A stretch of 64,000 nt of DNA from the human T2T-CHM13v2.0 reference genome, Homo sapiens. The stretch's first letter is position 1. Each line of letters begins with the position of its first letter. The notes under the pieces are model-generated. The model ran no database searches. It saw nothing but the letters and a program-made list of their open reading frames with translations, and was not told the origin of the DNA. A program made the translations under genes and the position numbers. The stretch lies in assembly GCF_009914755.1 (NCBI RefSeq), contig NC_060926.1; one strand, written 5' to 3'. This document shows, piece by piece, positions 19,814 through 61,035 of the stretch.

Positions 19814-22733
<2,920 letters not shown>

Positions 22734-51562: not shown

Positions 51563-51792
51563 TCAAAAGAACAAATTAAATAATTGTTATGAAGTTGAAC
51601 TTCTAAAACTTGTTCACTGAAATGTTTTGACCCGCATTAATGCTTTATGTCCCACATTTATATTGAAAATCCACATGCAAATAAAAATGGAAAAACCACC
51701 AATACCTCATTTCTGTTCCTTATTTTTTCACTTACAATCTTATACTTAGGTGCCTTTTGACCCTATGGGGAAAAAATAATGTTCAGAACTAC

Positions 51793-52332
51793 TGAGAGGT
51801 GACAGCGTGCTGGCAGTCCTTACCGCCCTCGCTCGCTCTCAGCGCCTCCTCTGCCTGGGCTCCCACTTTGGCAGCACTTGAGGAGCCCTTCAGCCCACCA
51901 CTGCACTGTGGGAGCCACTTTCTGGGCTGGCCGAGGCCGGAGCCCACTCCTTCAGCTTGCAGGGAGGTGTGGAGGGAGAGGCGCGAGCAGGAACCAGGGC
52001 TGCGTGCCACGCTTGTGGGCCAGCTGGAGTTCCGGGTGGGCATGGGCTTGGCGGGCCCCGCACTCGGAGCAGCCGGCCAGCCCTGCCGGCCCCAGGCAAT
52101 GAGGGGCTTAGCACCCGGGCCAGCGGCTGCGGGGGGTGCACTGGGTCCCCCAGCAGTGCCAGCCAACCGGCACTGCTCTTGATTTCTCACCGGGTCTTAG
52201 CTGCCTTCCCGCGGGGCAGGGCTCGGGCCTGCAGCCCGCCATGCCTGAGCCTCCCACCCCCTCCATGGGCCCCTGTGCGGCCCGAGCCTCCCCGATGAGT
52301 GCCGCCCCCTGCTCCACGGCGCCCAGTCCCAT
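51793..52332 (+). mobile_element. Truncated 5' LTR12C (GC-rich proximal U3 only)
   Basis: Colinear with 3' LTR 58269-58793 up to CCCAGTCCCAT, then joins directly to ERV9 leader (GCCAAGCGGTGAGAC). No CCAAT repeats, R, U5 or PBS. Confidence 0.92.
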
Positions 52333-53413
52333 TGCCAAGCGGTGAGACAATCGCTGAGCGGTGAGAGCATCACCTATCCGCAAGCAGTGAGTACCATCGG
52401 ACCCCTTTCGCTTGCTATTCTGTCCTGTCTTTCCTTAGAATTCGGGGGCTAAATACCGGGCACCTTATTGGCCAGTTAAAAGTGACTAGCGCAGCTGCCA
52501 GAGTAAAGACACGGGTGTCAGGCTTTCTGGGAAAGGGCTCTCTAACAACCCCCGACTCTTCGGAGTTGGGACCATTGGTTTGCCTAGAACCAGCTTCCGC
52601 TTTTCCTGTACTTCTGGACTGAGTCAAGGGTTGACAAAGAGGAAAGCCATGCAGCTCCGGGGTCCCAACAACAAGTTGGTTGACCCTGCGGCCATGGGCA
52701 GAACTCTCAAAGGCATGTCGCCCAAGTGAGACTTGCCCATCTATCCTATCTATCCTGACCCTTGCCCCCTGGGTCCTAATGCCTGCCAGACAAACTTCCT
52801 CTCACCTCTTTTCTCTGAGGCTAATTAGACCCACTTCTAAAAATTGCTACCTGTCTCTGGTGCTTTTCTAGTTTCTCCTATAAGAATGATTTCTAGTATA
52901 AACTCCAGGACTCTGTTACCTTCTTTAGGCACCTGGGCTCACCAATCAGAAAGACATAATTTTTGCCCAAAGCCCTGTCACAGTGGGGACTACCTGGAAT
53001 TTTAGGATCCCTCCTCAGACTAACAGGCCTAACAAAAGCTATTCCTGAAGCTAGGATATGGGGAGCCTTAGAAATTGTATCCTTCCTATTCATATAAGTG
53101 AGGACAAAAGGTGTCACTCTTCCAACCCTGGAGATCCCTTCCCTCCCTCAGGGTGTGGCCCTCCACTTCATTTTTGGGGCATAACATCTTTATAGGACAG
53201 GGGTAAAGTCCCAAGACTAACAGGAGAATGCTTAGGACTCTTAACAGGTTTTTGAGGATGCGTTGGTAAGGGCCACTAAATCTGATTTTTCTCAGTCGGT
53301 CCTCCTTGTGGTCTAGGAGGACAGGCAAGGGTGCAGGTTTTCAAGAATGCGTCGGTAAGGACCACTAAATCCGACCTTCCTCCGTCCTCCATGTGGTCTG
53401 GGAGGAAAACTAG

Positions 53414-53652
53414 TGTTTCTGCTGCTGCGTCAGTGAGCGCAACTATTCCGATCAGCAGGGTCCAGGGACCGTTGCAGGTTCTTGGGCAGGGGTTGTTTCT
53501 GCTGCTGCATTGGTGAGCGCAACTATTCCGATCAGCAGGGTCCAGGGACAGTTGCATGTTCTTGGGCAGGGGTTGTTTCTGCTGCTGCGTCGGTGAGCAC
53601 AACTATTCCGATCAGCAGGGTCCAGGGACCGTTGCGAGTTCTTGGGCAGGGG
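53414..53652 (+). repeat. Three tandem 80-bp repeats in the proviral leader
   Basis: Unit TGTTTCTGCTGCTGC...AACTATTCCGATCAGCAGGGTCCAGGGA...TTCTTGGGCAGGGG starts at 53414, 53494 and 53574. Confidence 0.95.
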
Positions 53653-53696
53653 GAGAAACAAAACAAACCAAAACCACGGGCGGTTTTGTCTTTCAG

Positions 53697-55157
53697 ATGG
53701 GAAACACTCAGGCATCAACAGGCTCACCCTTGAAATGCATCCTAAGCCATTGGGACCAATTTGACCCACAAACCCTGAAAAAGAGGCGGCTCATTTTTTT
53801 CTGCACTACGGCTTGGCCCCAATATTCTCTTTCTGATGGGGAAAAATGGCCACCTGAGGGCAGTACAAATTACAATACTATCCTGCAGCTTGACCTTTTC
53901 TCTAAGAGGGAAGGCAAATGGAGTGTCTTACCTTATGTTCGAGCTTTCTTTTCATTGAGGGAGAATATACAACTATGCAAAGCTTGCAATTTACATCCCA
54001 CAGGAGGACCTCTCAGCTTACCACCATATCCTAGCCTCCCTATAGCTCCCCTTCCTATTAATGATAATCCTCCTCTAATCTCCCCTGCCCAGAAGGAAAT
54101 AAGCAAAGAAATCTCCAAAGGACCACAAAAACCCCCGGGCTATCGGTTATGTCCCCTTCAAGCTGTAGGGGGAGGGGAATTTGGCCCAACCTGGGTACGT
54201 GTCCCCTTCTCCCTCTCTGATTTAAAGCAGATCAAGGCACACCTGGGGAAGTTTTCAGATGATCCTGATAGGTACATAGATGTCCTACAGGGTCTAGGGC
54301 AAACCTTTGACCTCCCTTGGAGAGATGTCATGCTACTGTTAGATCAAACCCTGGCCTTTAATGAAAAGAATGCCGCTTTAGCTGCAGCCCGAGAGTTTGG
54401 AGATACCTGGTATCTTAGTAAAGTAAATGATAGAATGACAGCTGAAGAAAGGGACAAATTCCCTACTGGTCAGCAAGCCATCCCCATTATGGATCCCCAC
54501 TGGGACCTTGACTCAGATCATGGGGACTGGAGTCGTAAACATCTGTTGACCTGTGTTTTAGAAGGACTAAGGAGAATTACAAAAAAGCCCATGAATTATT
54601 CAATGATGTCCACCATAAATCAGGGAAAGGAAGAAAATCCTTCTGCCTTCCTCGAGCGGCTACGAGAGGCCTTAAGAAAATATACTCCCCTGTCACCTGA
54701 ATCACTTGAGAGTCAATTGATTCTAAAAGATAAGTTTATTACCCAATCAGCCACAGATACCAGGAGAAAGCTCCAAAAGCAAGCCCTGAGCCCTGAACAA
54801 AAATCTAGAGGCATTATTAAACCTGGCAACCTCGGTGTTCTATAATAGGGACCAAGAGGAACAGGCCCAAAAGGAAAAGCGAGATCAGAGAAAGGCCGCA
54901 GCCTTAGTCATGGCCCTCAGACAAACAAACCTTGGTGGTTCAGAGAGGACAGAAAATGGAGTAGGCCAATCACCTGGTAGGTCTTGTTATCAGTATGGTT
55001 TACTAGGACACTTTAAAAAAGATTGTCCAATGAGAAAGAAGCTGCCCCCTCATCCATGTCCACTATGCCGAGGCAATCGCTAGAAGGTGCACTGCCCCAG
55101 AGGACGAAGGTTCCCTGGGTCAGAAGGCCCAACCAGATGATCCAACAACAGGACTGA
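53697..55157 (+). pseudogene. gag: HERV9 gag: MA-CA open for ~368 codons, +1 frameshift at 54799-54803, degenerate NC
   Basis: MGNTQAS start and MHR-like [23 protein letters not shown]. An A5 run breaks [23 protein letters not shown]. Zinc knuckle reads CYQYGLLGHFKKDC (Cys>Tyr); TAG at 55081-55083; gag stop TGA at 55155-55157. Confidence 0.93.
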
Positions 55158-57410
55158 GGGTGCCCGGGGCAAGTGCCAGCTCATGTCATCACCCTCACTG
55201 AGCCCCGGGTATGTTTAACTATTGAGGGCCAGGAAATTGACTTCCTCCTGGACACTGGCGCAGCCTTCTCAGTGTTACTCTCCTGTCCTGGACGACTGTC
55301 CTCAAGGTCCGTTACCATCCGAGGAATCCTGGGACAGCCTGTAACCAGGTATTTCTCCCACCTCCTCAGTTGTAATTGGGAGACTTTGCTCTTTTCACAT
55401 GCCTTTCTTGTTATGCCTGAAAGTCCCACACCGTTATTAGGGAGGGATATATTAGCCAAGGCTGGAGCTATTATCTACATGAATATGGGGAACAAGTTAG
55501 CCATTTGTTGTCCCCTACTTGAGGAGGGAATCAACCCTGAAGTCTGGGCATTGGAAGGACAATTTGGAAGGGCAAAAAATGCCCGCCCAGTCCAAATCAG
55601 GTTAAAAGATCCCACCAGTTTTCCTTATCAAAGGCAATATCCCTTAAGGCCTGAAGCTCATACAGGATTACAGAATATTGTTAAACATTTGAAAGCTCAA
55701 GGCTTAGTAAGGAAATGCAGGAGTCCCTGAAACACCCCAATTCTGGGAGTACAAAAACCAAACGGTCAGTGGAGTCTAGTGCAAGATCTTAGACTCATTA
55801 ATGAGGCAGTAATTCCACTATATCCAGTTGTACCCAACCCCTATACCCTGCTCTCTCAAATACCAGAGGAAGCAGAATGGTTCACGGTTCTGGACCTCAA
55901 GGATGCCTTCTTCTGTATTCCCCTGCACTCTGACTCCCAGTTTCTCTTTGCTTTTGAGGATCCCACAGACCACACGTCCCAACTTACATGGATGGTCTTG
56001 CCCCAGGGGTTTAGGGATAGCCTTCATCTGTTTGGTCAGGCACTGGCCCAAGATCTAAGCCACTTCTCAAGTCCAGGCACTCTGGTTCTTCAATATGTGG
56101 ATGATTTACTTTTGGCTACCAGTTCGGAAGCCTCGTGCCAGCAGGCTACTCTAGATCTCTTGAACTTTCTAGCTAATCAAGGGTACAAGGTGTCTAGGTC
56201 GAAGGCCCAGCTTTGCCTACAGCAGGTTAAATATCTAGGCCTAATCTTAGCCAAAGGGACCAGGGCCCTCAGCAAGGAACGAATACAGCCTATACTGGCT
56301 TATCCTCGCCCTAAGACATTAAAACATTTGAGGGGGTTCCTTGGAATTACCGGCTTTTGCCGACTATGGATCCCTGGATACAGCGAGATAGCCAGGCTCC
56401 TCTATACTCTAATCAAGGAAACCCAGAAGGCAAATACTCATCTAGTCGAATGGGAACCAGAAGCAGAAACAGCCTTTAAAACCTTAAAGCAGGCTCTAGT
56501 ACAAGCTCCAGCTTTAAGGCTTCCCACAGGACAGAACTTCTCTTTATATGTCACAGAGAGAGCTGGGATAACTCTCGGAGTCCTTACTCAGACTCGTGGG
56601 ACAATCCCACAACCAGTGGCATACCTAAGTAAGGAAATTGATGTAGTAGCAAAAGGCTGGCCTCACTGTTTAAGGGTAGTTGCAGCAGTGGCCATCTTAG
56701 CATCAGAGGCTATCAAAATAATACAAGGAAAGGATCTCACTGTCTGGATTACTCATGATGTAAATGGCATACTAGGTGCCAAAGGAAGTTTATGGCTATC
56801 AGACAGCCACCTACTTAGATACCAGGCACTACTCCTTGAGGGACTGGTGCTTCAAATGCGCATATGCGTGGCCCTCAACCCTGCCACTTTTCTCCCAGAG
56901 GATGGGGAACCAATCGAGCATGACTGCCAACAAATTATAGTCCAGACTTAGGCCGCCCGAGATGATCTCTTAGAAGTCCCCTTAACTAATCCTGACCTTA
57001 ACCTATATAACGATGGAAGTTCATTTGTGGAGAATGGGATACGAAGGGTAGGTTACACCATAGTTAGTGATGTAACCATACTTGAAAGCAAGCCTCTTCC
57101 CCCAGGGACCAGTGCCCAGTTAGTGGAACTAGTGGCACTTACCTGAGCCTTAGAACTGGGAAAGGGAAAAAGAATAAATGTGTATACAGATAGCAAGTAT
57201 GCTTATCTAATCCTACATGCCCATGCTACAATATGGAAAGAGAGGGAGTTCCTAACCTCTGGGGGAACCCCTATTAAATACCACAAGGAAATTATAGAGT
57301 TATTGCACACAATGCAAAAACACAAAGAGGTGGGAATCTTACACTGACAAAGCCATCAAAATGGGAAGGAGAGGGGAGAACAGCAGCATAAGCAGCTGGC
57401 AGAGGCAGCA
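55158..57410 (+). pseudogene. pol: HERV9 pro-pol (protease, RT, RNase H) with nonsense codons; integrase absent
   Basis: Protease motifs FLLDTGA and LLGRDIL; RT motifs LPQGF and YVDD; RNase H motifs YNDGSS and VYTDSKY. One reading frame throughout, with stops at 55728, 56949, ~57144 and ~57345. Confidence 0.93.
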
Positions 57411-57570
57411 GAAAGGAAAGAAAGGGACAGGAAGTCAAAGAAAGAGACAGAGAAGAGACAAAGAAGTCAGAAAGAGGAACAGACACAGAAAGAGAGTTAA
57501 AAAGAGAGGAAGAGACAAAGAAGAAGTTGAAGAGAAAGAAAGAGAGATGGAAGTAGTAAAGAAAAAACAG
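57411..57570 (+). repeat. AG-rich low-complexity tract at the pol/env deletion region
   Basis: Almost pure purine run (GAAAGGAAAG...AGAGAAAGAAAGAGAG) following RNase H. Confidence 0.8.
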
Positions 57571-57659
57571 TATACCCTATTCCTTTAAAAGCCAGGGTAA
57601 ATTTCTATCTACCCAGCCAAGGCATATTCTACTTATGTGGATCTTCAACCCGTATCTAC

Positions 57660-58100
57660 CTCTCAAACAGTTTGCAAGAAATAACAAAATCTATCCTTAC
57701 TGTATAATCCCAAATAGACTCTTTGGCAGCAGTGACTCTCCAAAACCGCCGAGGCCTAGACCTCCTCACTGCTGAGAAAGGAGGACTCTGCACCTTCTTA
57801 GGGGAAGAGTGTTGTTTTTACACTAACCAGTCGGGGGTAGCACAAGATGCCACCCAGCGTTTACAGGAAAAGGCTTCTGAAATCAGACAACGCCTTTCAA
57901 ATTCTTATACCAGCCTCTGGAGTTGGGCAACATGGCTTCTCCCCTTTCTAGGTCCTGTGGCAGCCATCTTGCTGTTACTCGCCTTTGGGCCCTGTATTTT
58001 TAACCTTGTCAAATTCGTTTCCTCTAGAATCGAGGCCATCAAGCTACAGATGGTCTTACAAATGGAACCCCAAATGAGTTCAACTAACAACTTCTACTGA
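57660..58100 (+). pseudogene. env: HERV9 env TM-subunit remnant (SU deleted)
   Basis: Immunosuppressive-domain motif LQNRRGLDLLTAEKGGLC, CX6CC motif CTFLGEECC and hydrophobic anchor WLLPFLGPVAAILLLLAFGPCIF. In-frame TAA near 57705 upstream of these. Confidence 0.92.
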
Positions 58101-58257
58101 GGACTCCTGGACCGACCCTCTGGCACTTCCCCTGGCCTAGAGAGTTCCCCTCTGAAGGACACTACAACTGCAGAGCCCCTTCTTTGCCCCTATCCAGCAG
58201 GAAATAGCTAGAGCGGTCATTGGCCAAATTCCCAACAGCATTTGGGGTGTCCTGTTT

Positions 58258-58268
58258 AGAGGGGGGAT
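58258..58268 (+). other. Polypurine tract
   Basis: AGAGGGGGGAT immediately before the TG of the 3' LTR. Confidence 0.88.
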
Positions 58269-58929
58269 TGAGAGGTAACAGCGTGCTGGCAGTCCTCACA
58301 GCCCTCGCTCACTCTCAGCGCCTCTGCCTGGGCTCCCACTTTGGCGGCACTTGAGGAGCCCTTCAGCCCACCACTGCATTGTGGGAGCCCCTTTCTGGGC
58401 TGGCCAAGGCCGGAGCCCACTCCCTCAGCTTGCAGGGAGGTGTGGAGGGAGAGGCGCAAGCAGGAACCGGGGCGGCGTGCCGCGCTTGCGGGCCAGCCGG
58501 AGTTCCGGTTGGGCATGGGCTTGGCGGGCCCCGCACTCGGAGCAGCCAGCCCCAGGCAATGAGGGGCTTAGCACCCAGGCCAGCAGCTGCGGAGGGTGTA
58601 CTGGGTCCCCCAGCAGTGCCAGCCCACCGGCGCTGCTCTCAGTTTCTCACTGGGTCTTAGCTGCCTTCCCACAGGGCAGGGCTCGGGACCTGCAGCCCGC
58701 CATGCCTGAGCCTCCCACCCCCTCCATGGGCCCCTGTGCGGCCCGAGCCTCCCTGATGAGTGCCGCCCCCTGCTCCACGGCGCCCAGTCCCATCAACCAC
58801 CCAAGGGCTGAGGAGTGTGAGCGCACGGTGTGGGACTGGCAGGCAGCTCCACCTGCAGCCCAGGTGTGGGATCCACTGGGTGAAGCCAGCTGGGCTCCTG
58901 AGTCTGGTGGGGACATGGAGAACCTTTAT

Positions 58930-59270
58930 GTCTAGCTCAGGGATTGTAAATACACCAATAGGCACTCTGTATCTAGCTCAAGGTTTGTAAATACACCAAT
59001 CAGCACCCTGTGTCTAGCTCAGGGTTTGTGAATGCACCAGTAGACACTCTGTATCTAGCTACTCTGGTGGGGCCTTATAGAACCTTTGTGTCGACACTCT
59101 GTATCTAGCTAATCTGGTGGGGACGTGGAGAACCTTTGTGTCTAGCTCAGGGATTGTAAACGCACCAATCAGCGCCCTGTCAAAACAGACCACTCGGCTC
59201 TACCAATCAGCAGGACGTGGGTGGGGCCAGATAAGAGAATAAAAGCGGGCTGCCCGAGCTAGCAGTGGTA
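58930..59270 (+). promoter_or_regulatory. LTR12 U3 enhancer/promoter (NF-Y CCAAT array, GATA, AATAAAA TATA-like box)
   Basis: CCAAT at 58955, 58996, 59165 and 59203; AGATAA at 59229-59234; AATAAAA at 59238-59244. This matches the known ERV9 LTR promoter layout. Confidence 0.8.
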
Positions 59271-59323
59271 ACCCGCTTGGGTCCCCTTCCACACTGTGGA
59301 AGCTTTGTTCTTTAGCTCTTTGC

Positions 59324-59329
59324 AATAAA
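59324..59329 (+). terminator. LTR polyadenylation signal AATAAA, sense to BMPR2
   Basis: TTGC-AATAAA-TCTTGC in the R region, followed by T/GT-rich sequence (CTCTTTGGGT, CTGTTTTTATG). Confidence 0.75.
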
Positions 59330-59692
59330 TCTTGCTACTGCTCACTCTTTGGGTCCATACTGTTTTTATGAGCTGTAACACTCCCCGCAAAGGTCTGCAG
59401 CTTCACTCCTGAAGCCAGCGAGACCAGGAGCCCACCAGGAGGAATGAACAACTCCAGACACGCCGCCTCAAGAGCTGTAACACTCACCGCGAAGGTCTGC
59501 AGCTTCACTCCTGAGCCAGCGAGACCACAAACCCACCAGAAGGAAGAAACTCTGAACACATCCGAACATCAGAAGGAACAAACTCCAGACGCACCACCTG
59601 AAGAGCTGTAACACTCACTGCGAGGGTCCGTGGCTTCATTCCTGAAGTCAGTGAGACCAAGAACCCACCAATTCCGGACACACTACCAATAA

Positions 59693-60023
<331 letters not shown>

Positions 60024-61035
60024 TGAGCCACCATGCCTGACCCATCATAGTAGATTCTTAAGGATGCTTTCTACAAATGCATTGTGCTAGTTGGATATCT
60101 TTTGGCATGATTGTTACACGTTTGGCATGGATAACATACAGGTTAATGTCTTCAAAAAGGCCAACCAGATAGGCCTACTGAACCAAAGAGATAGCTATTT
60201 TCAAAATACCAATAGCTGTACTCTAGATGTGCCAATCTATTTTGAAGTCCCAAACAATTTCTCACCTCAGACACTGGAAGAAAATTTGCCAATCAGAAGT
60301 TCAGGGGACTTCTGATTAGGACTTATTACAGAGTGCCTCGCAAATAGGTCTGTAATTCTGAGGTTTCTTCACCTATCCTGTAGAGGACACTCTCTTAGGA
60401 GCAGCTTTTTTTTTTTTTTTTTTTTTAATAAATTTTGGAAACAGGATTTTACTCTGTCTTCTAGGCCGCAGTGTAGTGGCGCAATCATAGTTCACTGCAG
60501 CCTGCAACTCCTGAGCTCAAGCAACCCTCCCAACTCAGCCTCCTGAGTAGCTGGGATTACAGGTGTGAGCACTGTGCTTGGTCTCTTATGAGCAACTTTT
60601 GTAACCACTTGCTTACTGGATGCTTTACTTCCAGTTGATTTATGGACATTGTTGTGCCTTTTATGAGCCATGGTATAGAGACCTCCTTACTTACTCTCCT
60701 CCTTTGGCTGGAGCTTGGCAAGCTAGAGGTGGTGCTGGCACTCTATAACCACTTTATTTTATGGATAAAGAAGTAAGAGCCTAGAAAAATTATATAATTT
60801 GTCCACAGTGGCTAAAGTGGGACTAAAACTTATGAGCTCTTTTCACTAAACTACTTTACCACTGTTACCTGAAATATTTTGGGAGTGTAATATTATCAAT
60901 AATAGACTACTTATTTCCTAACAACTGGTTGTTAATGATAATGTTAAATTATAGTTAAATTTTGAAGTTAAATCACTGTTCGTCATGGTTGCTAATATTT
61001 GATGTAATGCCTTAGGACAAATTTTCCTACCTAGG

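What the first reader, a model, noticed from the sequence alone, without database searches (positions are those of the whole stretch)
53680..59345. Sense provirus as a gene trap: predicted soluble BMPR2 ectodomain isoform
Seen: a strong acceptor TTTTGTCTTTCAG|ATGG at 53696/53697 and an intact sense AATAAA at 59324. Splicing exon 3 (phase 1) here gives BMPR2 1-139 plus [22 protein letters not shown], then TGA at 53762-53764. Established: exons 1-3 encode the signal peptide and the ligand-binding fold, while the TM and kinase lie downstream, and BMPR2 is dosage-sensitive in pulmonary arterial hypertension. Inference: ERV-driven intronic termination could both lower full-length receptor and secrete a BMP/activin trap.
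Basis: partly seen in the sequence, partly recalled or inferred. Interest (0 to 1): 0.85.

Follow-up and report, generated by a model that had tools for sequence, protein, structure and literature searches.

The report
Old defective provirus in BMPR2 intron
A roughly 15-25-million-year-old, damaged retrovirus copy sits in the same direction as BMPR2 inside its third intron and carries a splice-acceptor-like site and a poly(A) signal that could cut the receptor short, but nothing here shows that this happens.

Summary
Exon 3 ends in phase 1 at 22728. An AG lies at 53695-53696 directly before the gag ATG. Splicing there gives [22 protein letters not shown], then TGA at 53762-53764. AATAAA lies at 59324.

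The element is a 7.9-kb HERV9-like provirus, 51793-59682, flanked by a CTAC target-site duplication. Its 5' LTR has lost promoter, R, U5 and the primer-binding site. Integrase and most of env are missing.

The acceptor is not special to BMPR2. The exact 30-mer occurs 93 times in this genome. It is probably the family's native pre-gag intron acceptor (PMC6995185). A crude matrix ranks it 234th of 4474 AGs in the window, and at least 25 AGs inside the provirus score higher.

The general idea, that sense HERV9 disrupts genes, was published in 2006 (PMC1794541). Seven BMPR2-centred literature searches found nothing on this locus. No RNA data could be consulted.

LTR divergence of 6.3% implies long fixation in a dosage-sensitive gene, so trapping is most likely weak or negligible. 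This is a plausible but unproven latent gene trap of low to moderate interest.

The parts
22558..22728 (+). BMPR2 exon 3. It ends in phase 1 (..CTC A|gtaagt) and would supply the donor for the hypothetical junction.
   Evidence: sequence; 22560-22727 translates to 56 residues identical to BMPR2 ectodomain chains 7ppc, 7ppa, 7u5o and 2hlq. Exon coordinates come from the hub's gene table.
51789..51792 (.). 5' copy of the 4-bp target-site duplication CTAC.
   Evidence: printout of flanks.
51793..52332 (+). Remnant of the 5' LTR, holding only the 5' part of U3. The rest of U3 (with the promoter), R with its poly(A) signal, U5 and the primer-binding site are deleted.
   Evidence: families D9, D12, D16, D17 pair it with 58269-58793; 502 of 536 aligned bases identical, and homology stops at 52332; sister copy L011 shows the U5, primer-binding site and leader that are absent here.
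52333..53696 (+). Leader (pre-gag) region. It holds donor-like GCG|gtgaga sites at 52341/2 and 52360/1, the latter conserved in L011, and three 80-nt tandem repeats at 53414-53652.
   Evidence: The pre-gag-as-intron idea comes from PMC6995185.
53684..53696 (+). Pyrimidine tract plus AG. This is the candidate 3' splice site directly before the gag ATG and is probably the family's native pre-gag intron acceptor.
   Evidence: 93 exact copies of the 30-mer in the genome. PMC6995185.
53697..53764 (+). Predicted out-of-gag-frame tail of 22 residues ([22 protein letters not shown]) and the TGA at 53762-53764, if exon 3 were spliced here.
   Evidence: script translation.
53697..54845 (+). gag open frame of 382 residues (matrix and p30 capsid). 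The nucleocapsid part continues in another frame, 54790-55083.
   Evidence: Gag_p30 E 8.7e-25; Gag_MA E 7.4e-4, below the curated cut-off.
55158..57347 (+). pro-pol, read through in-frame stops: protease 55158-55730, reverse transcriptase 55731-56951, RNase H in two pieces 56952-57347. No integrase was found.
   Evidence: RVP 3.8e-12, RVT_1 7.8e-24, RNase_H 8.1e-7.
57173..57178 (+). Internal AATAAA, one of four poly(A) hexamers (also ATTAAA at 54816, 56318 and 57273) that lie between the acceptor and the 3' LTR.
57409..57523 (+). Purine-rich low-complexity repeat at the place where integrase and most of env are missing.
57708..58100 (+). C-terminal (transmembrane subunit) part of env. This is the only env piece left.
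   Evidence: TLV_coat positions 449-559 of 560, E 1.9e-36.
58269..59682 (+). Complete 3' LTR. It holds 41- and 50-nt U3 repeats, a promoter-proximal AATAAAAG at 59238, the poly(A) signal, and about 100-130-nt U5 repeats. The name LTR12 is recalled, not tested.
   Evidence: (families D10, D14, D18).
59324..59329 (+). AATAAA poly(A) signal of the 3' LTR. The downstream 50 nt are 34% T.
59683..59686 (.). 3' copy of the target-site duplication CTAC.

Best explanation
This is an old, fixed, replication-dead HERV9-like provirus (51793-59682) lying in the sense direction in BMPR2 intron 3. Its own promoter is gone, so its internal region is transcribed only passively, as part of the BMPR2 pre-mRNA, and is normally removed with the intron.

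It still carries two inherited viral signals: the acceptor at the end of the pre-gag leader (AG 53695-53696) and the 3' LTR poly(A) signal (59324).

I infer that the trap is used rarely or not at all. The likely reasons are a middling acceptor without a canonical branch point, no partner donor within 497 nt, and a poly(A) site 5.6 kb away. Many U1-type donor motifs lie upstream of that poly(A) site and would be expected to suppress intronic cleavage (telescripting, a recalled concept). Selection would also have removed an efficient trap from a haploinsufficient gene.

Shown here: the anatomy, the motifs, the frame, their family-wide nature, and the age proxy. Inferred: the low level of use.
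For: - Anatomy. Paired LTR segments, a CTAC duplication on both sides and 502/536 LTR identity, and gag, protease, RT, RNase H and env-TM domains with no integrase.
- Lost promoter. The 5' LTR lacks promoter, R, U5 and the primer-binding site when compared with sister copy L011.
- Family trait. The acceptor is inherited and not locus-specific: 25/30 and 28/30 copies, and 93 exact 30-mers in the genome.
- Motif strength. The acceptor ranks 234 of 4474 AGs. At least 25 AGs in the provirus score higher.
- Exon definition. The first donor that scores as well as the real exon-3 donor lies 498 nt downstream.
- Competing or suppressing signals. Donor-like sites lie at 58863, 58906, 59066 and 59116 upstream of the poly(A) signal. 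Other poly(A) hexamers lie at 54816, 56318, 57173 and 57273.
- Age. LTR divergence is 6.3%, Jukes-Cantor distance 0.066. At recalled rates of 0.13-0.2% per My per lineage this gives about 16-25 My.
- Annotation. The hub's RefSeq table shows no exon between 22728 and the window end.
- Print. None of the seven BMPR2-centred searches returned a paper on this locus, nor did a search on locus-style names.
Against: - The architecture is what a working trap would need.
  - The acceptor is probably a real viral one. [quoted passage not shown]
  - Deletion of the 5' LTR poly(A) signal leaves the only LTR poly(A) signal downstream of the acceptor.
  - The stop would lie in the last exon and so escape junction-dependent decay.
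  - No nearby donor competes for an internal-exon fate.
- My acceptor and donor scores come from crude, recalled matrices. The real exon-3 acceptor scores worse than the candidate, so motif rank is a weak argument.
- I saw no RNA data at all, so low use is an inference and not an observation.
- The age estimate is inflated by CpG transitions (25 of 34 differences are transitions) and rests on 536 bases.
Confidence: 0.7

Rival explanations
1. Exon 3 is spliced to 53697 and the transcript is cleaved after the 3' LTR poly(A) signal at a meaningful level, in some tissue or under stress or drug treatment. This would yield a secreted BMPR2 1-139 plus a 22-residue tail and lower the full-length receptor.
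For: - Frame, stop and poly(A) signal are confirmed.
- The acceptor is probably the native viral one (PMC6995185).
- No competing donor lies within 497 nt.
- The 5' LTR poly(A) signal is deleted.
- The ectodomain fold is complete by the end of exon 3.
- BMPR2-Fc traps BMP10 (PMC9234707).
- There is a precedent in sPD-L1, made from an intronic L2A element (PMC6877088, abstract).
Against: - No transcript evidence was seen, and the hub's RefSeq table has no exon here.
- The acceptor is unexceptional.
- The terminal exon would be 5.6 kb long and contains four earlier poly(A) hexamers.
- The same acceptor exists in at least 93 copies without HERV9 being known as a general terminator. The 2006 simulation predicts internal exons instead.
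- The provirus has long been fixed in a dosage-sensitive gene.
- BMPR2-Fc did not inhibit activin A or B. A monomeric ectodomain should trap more weakly than the Fc dimer (inference).
Confidence: 0.08
2. When the provirus is spliced at all, it yields internal 'poison' exons with both splice sites inside the element, for example 53152-53354 or 56899-57047. These carry premature stops, so the products are degraded by NMD. Any effect is a small loss of BMPR2 mRNA and no secreted protein.
For: - The 2006 simulation put 83% of sense-HERV9 disruption in exons lying wholly inside the internal region. It also found 12 sense splice events in human mRNAs (PMC1794541).
- My crude scan finds acceptor-donor pairs with better scores and normal exon sizes: 203 nt (acceptor 7.6, donor 4.2) and 149 nt (acceptor 8.9, donor 4.2). 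Both are out of frame, with stops after 14 and 17 codons.
Against:
- The matrices are crude and recalled.
- The paper's supplementary list of HERV9 splice positions could not be opened, so I cannot say whether these sites, or the gag acceptor, are among the 12 events.
Confidence: 0.15
3. The functionally relevant part is the intact 3' LTR acting as a sense-oriented alternative promoter. This would occur in germ line, or after DNMT or HDAC inhibition. Transcripts would run into exon 4 onward and encode, at best, a receptor without signal peptide and ligand-binding domain.
For: - The 3' LTR is complete, with U3 repeats and a promoter-proximal AATAAAAG upstream of the poly(A) signal.
- LTR12 elements are described as drug- and infection-inducible promoters (titles and abstracts in the listing: PMC5085097, PMC7641743, PMC8767690).
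Against: - No donor scoring 3 or more lies in R-U5. The first ones downstream are at 60562 and beyond, in neighbouring repeats.
- Those three LTR12 papers show 0 occurrences of BMPR2.
- The name LTR12 and the promoter layout are recalled, not tested.
Confidence: 0.07

Closest known systems
Sense-oriented intronic ERVs as transcript disruptors (van de Lagemaat, Medstrand and Mager 2006, PMC1794541; passages and two sections read)
   Same: A full-length sense HERV9 in a gene intron whose internal acceptor, combined with a donor or a poly(A) signal, is predicted to disrupt the host transcript. The general hypothesis, including the central role of the acceptor, is already in print.
   Different: That work is family-wide and based on a consensus and a simulation. 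It predicts mostly internal exons for HERV9 and does not name BMPR2 in the passages I read.
Pre-gag leader intron of the HERV-W / HERV-9 / HERV-30 group (Grandi et al. 2020, PMC6995185; passages read)
   Same: An AG at the 3' end of the long leader, just before gag, preceded by a pyrimidine tract. The window's copy also keeps a donor-like GCG|gtgaga near the leader's 5' end.
   Different: - Direct evidence (processed pseudogenes lacking pre-gag) exists for HERV-W only. For HERV-9 the paper gives 'data not shown'.
- My search for copies with a non-A base in front of G-ATG found only 4, and all read GG. One of these is the same place as L010, an unspliced copy whose AG reads GG. I did not read the flanks of the other three.
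- No CTRAY-type branch motif lies within 45 nt of this AG (printout).
Soluble PD-L1 from exaptation of an intronic L2A element in CD274 (Ng et al. 2019, PMC6877088; abstract read)
   Same: An intronic retroelement supplies an alternative terminal exon that omits the transmembrane domain. The result is a secreted ectodomain that modulates signalling.
   Different: That isoform is documented by transcripts and protein and is conserved in hominids. It uses a LINE-2 fragment, not a provirus. For BMPR2 there is no transcript or protein evidence.
Engineered BMPR2 ectodomain-Fc ligand trap (PMC9234707; passages read)
   Same: The same ligand-binding domain without the membrane anchor. It inhibits BMP10 signalling (34.7 nM against 5 nM BMP10).
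   Different: It is an artificial Fc dimer, and it did not inhibit activin A or B. The hypothetical natural product would be a monomer with a 22-residue foreign tail.

Membership tests
Endogenous gammaretrovirus-like provirus (HERV9 / ERV9 group) | Two LTRs in direct orientation flanked by a short target-site duplication | tested here: met
   pairs 51793-52332 with 58269-58793. One search shows TG...CA termini and CTAC on both sides. The 5' LTR is only a remnant.
Endogenous gammaretrovirus-like provirus (HERV9 / ERV9 group) | gag-pro-pol-env order with retroviral domains | tested here: met
   Gag_p30, RVP, RVT_1, RNase_H and the TLV_coat C-terminus, in that order. Integrase and the env surface subunit are absent, and the frames are broken.
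Endogenous gammaretrovirus-like provirus (HERV9 / ERV9 group) | Primer-binding site of the arginine-tRNA type after U5 | tested here: not met
   It is deleted in this copy. Sister copy L011 has an 18-nt site directly after U5. Its assignment to tRNA-Arg is recalled, and PMC6995185 says W-type and R-type sites both occur in HERV-9.
Endogenous gammaretrovirus-like provirus (HERV9 / ERV9 group) | Assignment to HERV9/LTR12 by comparison with reference repeat libraries | not testable with these tools
   No Repbase or Dfam library is on hand. The name rests on my recall of LTR12 U5 and U3 repeats. Supporting facts are a multi-copy family at 94-97% identity (368 first-look candidates, 40 scored) and a long pre-gag leader as described for the W/9/30 group.
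Retroelement-terminated soluble receptor isoform (gene-trap type, as for sPD-L1) | Sense retroelement in an intron upstream of the exon that encodes the transmembrane segment | tested here: met
   The provirus is on the plus strand, 29 kb downstream of exon 3. That exon 4 encodes the transmembrane segment is recalled.
Retroelement-terminated soluble receptor isoform (gene-trap type, as for sPD-L1) | Usable 3' splice site and poly(A) signal in the element, with an early in-frame stop | tested here: inconclusive
   The motifs and the stop are present. The acceptor rank is middling, and there are four competing poly(A) hexamers before the LTR. MaxEntScan and SpliceAI were not available.
Retroelement-terminated soluble receptor isoform (gene-trap type, as for sPD-L1) | Transcripts that join the host exon to the element and end there | not testable with these tools
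   No RNA-seq, EST, 3'-end or long-read data are on hand. The hub's RefSeq table has no such exon. Searches found no report.
Retroelement-terminated soluble receptor isoform (gene-trap type, as for sPD-L1) | Secreted protein product | not testable with these tools
   Soluble BMPR2 has been measured by immunoassay, going by the title of PMC8533551 in the listing (listing only). I did not see its molecular origin, and shedding is an alternative source.

The most novel reading that the evidence does not exclude
The native pre-gag acceptor of this HERV9 copy and its 3' LTR poly(A) site are used in a regulated way, for example in testis or placenta, or when U1 snRNP or splicing fidelity drops. The result would be a hominoid-specific, NMD-immune mRNA for a secreted BMPR2 ectodomain. 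That product would act as a BMP9/BMP10 decoy while lowering full-length receptor, and so could modify the penetrance of BMPR2-linked pulmonary arterial hypertension.
Probability: 0.04. Interest if true: 0.8.

Novelty: new member of a known kind. Interest (0 to 1): 0.25.

Why it matters
BMPR2 haploinsufficiency underlies most heritable pulmonary arterial hypertension, and its penetrance is incomplete. An intronic element that diverted even a modest share of transcripts into a truncated, secreted ectodomain would be a candidate modifier and a drug target, for example through acceptor-blocking oligonucleotides.

On present evidence, though, this is an ordinary old intronic provirus. Its inherited splice and poly(A) motifs are shared with at least 93 other copies in the genome. 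The value of this check is to show three things:
- The arithmetic is right.
- The acceptor is a family feature with a plausible viral origin.
- The functional claim rests wholly on RNA evidence that is still to be gathered.

Tried and rejected
- **Supplements of PMC1794541.** These list the mapped HERV9 splice positions and might show whether the gag acceptor is among the 12 mRNA-supported events. They were closed.
- **Fossil evidence that the acceptor was used by the family.**
  - I searched for copies whose gag start is preceded by something other than AG, with a 19-nt pattern and no mismatch allowed.
  - There were 4 hits and all read GG. One is the same place as L010, an unspliced copy with a mutated AG.
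  - No CG or TG junction turned up. That gives no support for past use, but an exact-match test is a weak one.
- **Conservation of the AG.** 28 of 30 copies keep it. This is about what roughly 95% identity among dead copies gives, so it is not evidence of selection.
- **Literature.**
  - BMPR2 with LTR12 (1 paper, unrelated).
  - BMPR2 with intronic polyadenylation (4 papers; the one I opened cites BMPR2 only in its reference list).
  - BMPR2 with HERV (295 papers; the 20 listed concern HERV-K or appear to match a surname).
  - 'Soluble BMPR2' (4 papers).
  - BMPR2 with HERV9, ERV9 or HERV-9 (30 papers, none of the 25 listed holds BMPR2).
  - BMPR2 with deep intronic (26 papers, 12 listed; none of the 12 titles concerns this provirus, and none was opened).
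  - Locus-style names for 2q33 (0 papers).
  - BMPR2 with exonization (5 papers; the relevant one is an Alu insertion elsewhere in the gene).
- **Multi-exon trap.** I considered a route through acceptor-like sites in the U3 remnant and the viral donor. All 8 combinations tried stop inside the first exon, so this was not pursued.
- **Not run.** MaxEntScan, SpliceAI, repeat-library classification and primate orthology could not be run with the tools on hand.

Full report
**Observation**

- Bases 22560-22727 translate to 56 residues identical to BMPR2 ectodomain chains in the PDB.
- The last exon base, 22728 (A), therefore opens a split codon, and the intron begins gtaagt.
- At 53684-53696 the sequence reads ttttgtctttcag. 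Base 53697 is the A of an ATG that opens a 382-residue gag frame.
- Placing the exon-3 A in front of 53697 gives [22 protein letters not shown] and then a stop at 53762-53764.
- AATAAA lies at 59324-59329, with a T-rich stretch behind it.
- The residue number 139 depends on an exon-1 coding length that I recall and did not test.

**What the element is**

- It has TG...CA termini and the 4-bp duplication CTAC on both sides.
- The 3' LTR (58269-59682) is complete.
- The 5' LTR is only a 540-nt remnant of U3 (51793-52332) that matches the 3' LTR at 502 of 536 aligned bases.
- A sister copy (L011) reads U5, an 18-nt primer-binding site, then the leader. Compared with it, this copy has lost the rest of U3, R, U5 and the primer-binding site.
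- It therefore has no promoter of its own in front of gag, and no upstream LTR poly(A) signal.
- Pfam finds Gag matrix and p30, protease, reverse transcriptase, RNase H in two pieces, and only the last 110 positions of the envelope model. There is no integrase. The frames are interrupted.
- A purine-rich repeat sits at the deletion site.
- The names HERV9 and LTR12 are recalled. No repeat library was available.
- The family is large: 368 first-look candidates, of which 40 were scored at 94-97% identity.

**The acceptor is a family feature**

- Of 30 sampled copies, the window's own included, 25 carry the exact 17-mer and 28 keep YAG|ATGGG.
- The exact 30-mer across the junction occurs 93 times in the genome, against 0 for the reversed control.
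- Among dead copies about 95% alike, this reflects descent and not selection.
- Grandi et al. 2020 (PMC6995185, passages) argue that the long pre-gag leader of HERV-W is an intron.
  - Some processed pseudogenes lack it exactly between GT and AG.
  - They add that conserved donor and acceptor sites were also identified at the ends of the HERV-9 pre-gag, as data not shown.
- The AG at 53696 lies at that 3' end. A donor-like GCG|gtgaga at 52360/1, conserved in L011, lies near the 5' end.
- The acceptor is therefore probably a real viral one.
- My own test for family members that had lost the leader found none. There were 4 hits and all read GG. One is the same place as L010, an unspliced copy with a mutated AG.

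**How good are the signals**

The splice-site scores come from a crude matrix built from recalled frequencies. It is not MaxEnt and serves for ranking only.
- The acceptor ranks 234 of 4474 plus-strand AGs in the window.
- In the intron-3 part, 160 of 2976 AGs score at least as high.
- At least 25 AGs inside the provirus score higher.
- The real acceptors of exons 2 and 3 rank 61 and 726. The site is therefore within the range of real acceptors but is not distinctive.
- The pyrimidine tract is 11 nt long. The 30 nt upstream of it contain no T, so no canonical branch motif. The nearest upstream AG is at -43.
- Downstream, the first donor scoring as well as the real exon-3 donor is 498 nt away. 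This argues against a short cassette exon starting at 53697.
- The LTR poly(A) signal is 5.6 kb away.
- ATTAAA at 54816, 56318 and 57273 and AATAAA at 57173 lie in between. A further, promoter-proximal AATAAA lies at 59238 inside the LTR.
- Donor-like sites at 58863, 58906, 59066 and 59116 precede the poly(A) signal. By the telescripting concept (recalled), such sites would damp intronic cleavage.

**Rival splice products**

- Two better-scoring acceptor-donor pairs define exons of normal size: 53152-53354 (203 nt) and 56899-57047 (149 nt). Both are out of frame, with stops after 14 and 17 codons.
- This fits van de Lagemaat et al. 2006 (PMC1794541; passages and sections 10-11 read).
  - Their simulation put 83% of sense-HERV9 disruption in exons lying wholly inside the internal region.
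  - They found 12 sense splice events in human mRNAs.
- That paper already states the general hypothesis: a sense ERV acceptor followed by a donor or a poly(A) signal disrupts host genes.

**The protein, if made**

- PDB ectodomain constructs of 100-125 residues end inside exon 3, so exons 1-3 suffice for the ligand-binding fold.
- BMPR2 ectodomain-Fc inhibited BMP10 (34.7 nM against 5 nM ligand) but not activin A or B (PMC9234707, passages).
- A BMP10-type trap is therefore plausible in principle, and an activin trap is not supported.
- A monomer should be weaker than the Fc dimer (inference).

**Age and selection**

- The LTR remnant differs from the 3' LTR at 34 of 536 sites. Of these, 25 are transitions in a CpG-rich stretch. 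The Jukes-Cantor distance is 0.066.
- At recalled rates of 0.13-0.2% per My per lineage, this gives about 16-25 My, probably an overestimate.
- An element fixed that long in a haploinsufficient gene is unlikely to divert a large share of transcripts (inference).

**Print and annotation**

- The hub's RefSeq table lists only exons 2 and 3 in the window.
- Searches returned no paper linking BMPR2 to this provirus, to intronic polyadenylation or to an ERV-derived isoform. Papers opened were unrelated.
- The closest documented analogue is soluble PD-L1 from an intronic L2A element (PMC6877088, abstract).

**Verdict**

- The element is an ordinary, old, defective sense provirus whose inherited acceptor and poly(A) signal make a latent gene trap.
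- Whether the trap fires cannot be told without RNA data.

| Reading | My estimate |
|---|---|
| Passive intron cargo with at most trace use | about 0.7 |
| Trace poison exons | about 0.15 |
| 3' LTR promoter use | about 0.07 |

- The kind of system is known, and this locus would be a new, unproven member. Interest is 0.25.

Noticed in passing
window 20016-20024: The annotated end of BMPR2 exon 2 (20018) is followed by gcaagt, not gt. Going by the hub's coordinates, intron 2 would be a GC-AG intron.
   Followed up: no
window 53414-53652: Three head-to-tail 80-nt units (93% matches) lie in the pre-gag leader, ending 44 nt before the acceptor. Each unit contains a donor-like TCG|gtgagc-type motif, one of which is at 53592. 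I did not check whether the copy number varies among family members.
   Followed up: partly
window 52341-52366; L011 280-320: Two donor-like GCG|gtgaga motifs lie 19 nt apart, right after the deletion joint of the 5' LTR. In sister copy L011 only the second has GT. This is the likely native major splice donor of the family.
   Followed up: partly
window 57409-57523: A purine-rich, imperfect 20-30-nt repeat sits between the RNase H remnant and the env remnant, where integrase and most of env are missing. Its origin is unknown.
   Followed up: no
window 59688-59760: Directly after the 3' target-site duplication comes another AATAAA (59688), then a poly-T run and an Alu-like repeat. The surrounding 46-64 kb stretch is dense with Alu-like copies (families D1-D8).
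   Followed up: no
G000 contig C24: Many copies of the family's gag start lie on contig C24. They include near-identical groups (L032-L034 share the same AG-to-GG change), which suggests copies multiplied by segmental duplication rather than by separate integrations.
   Followed up: no
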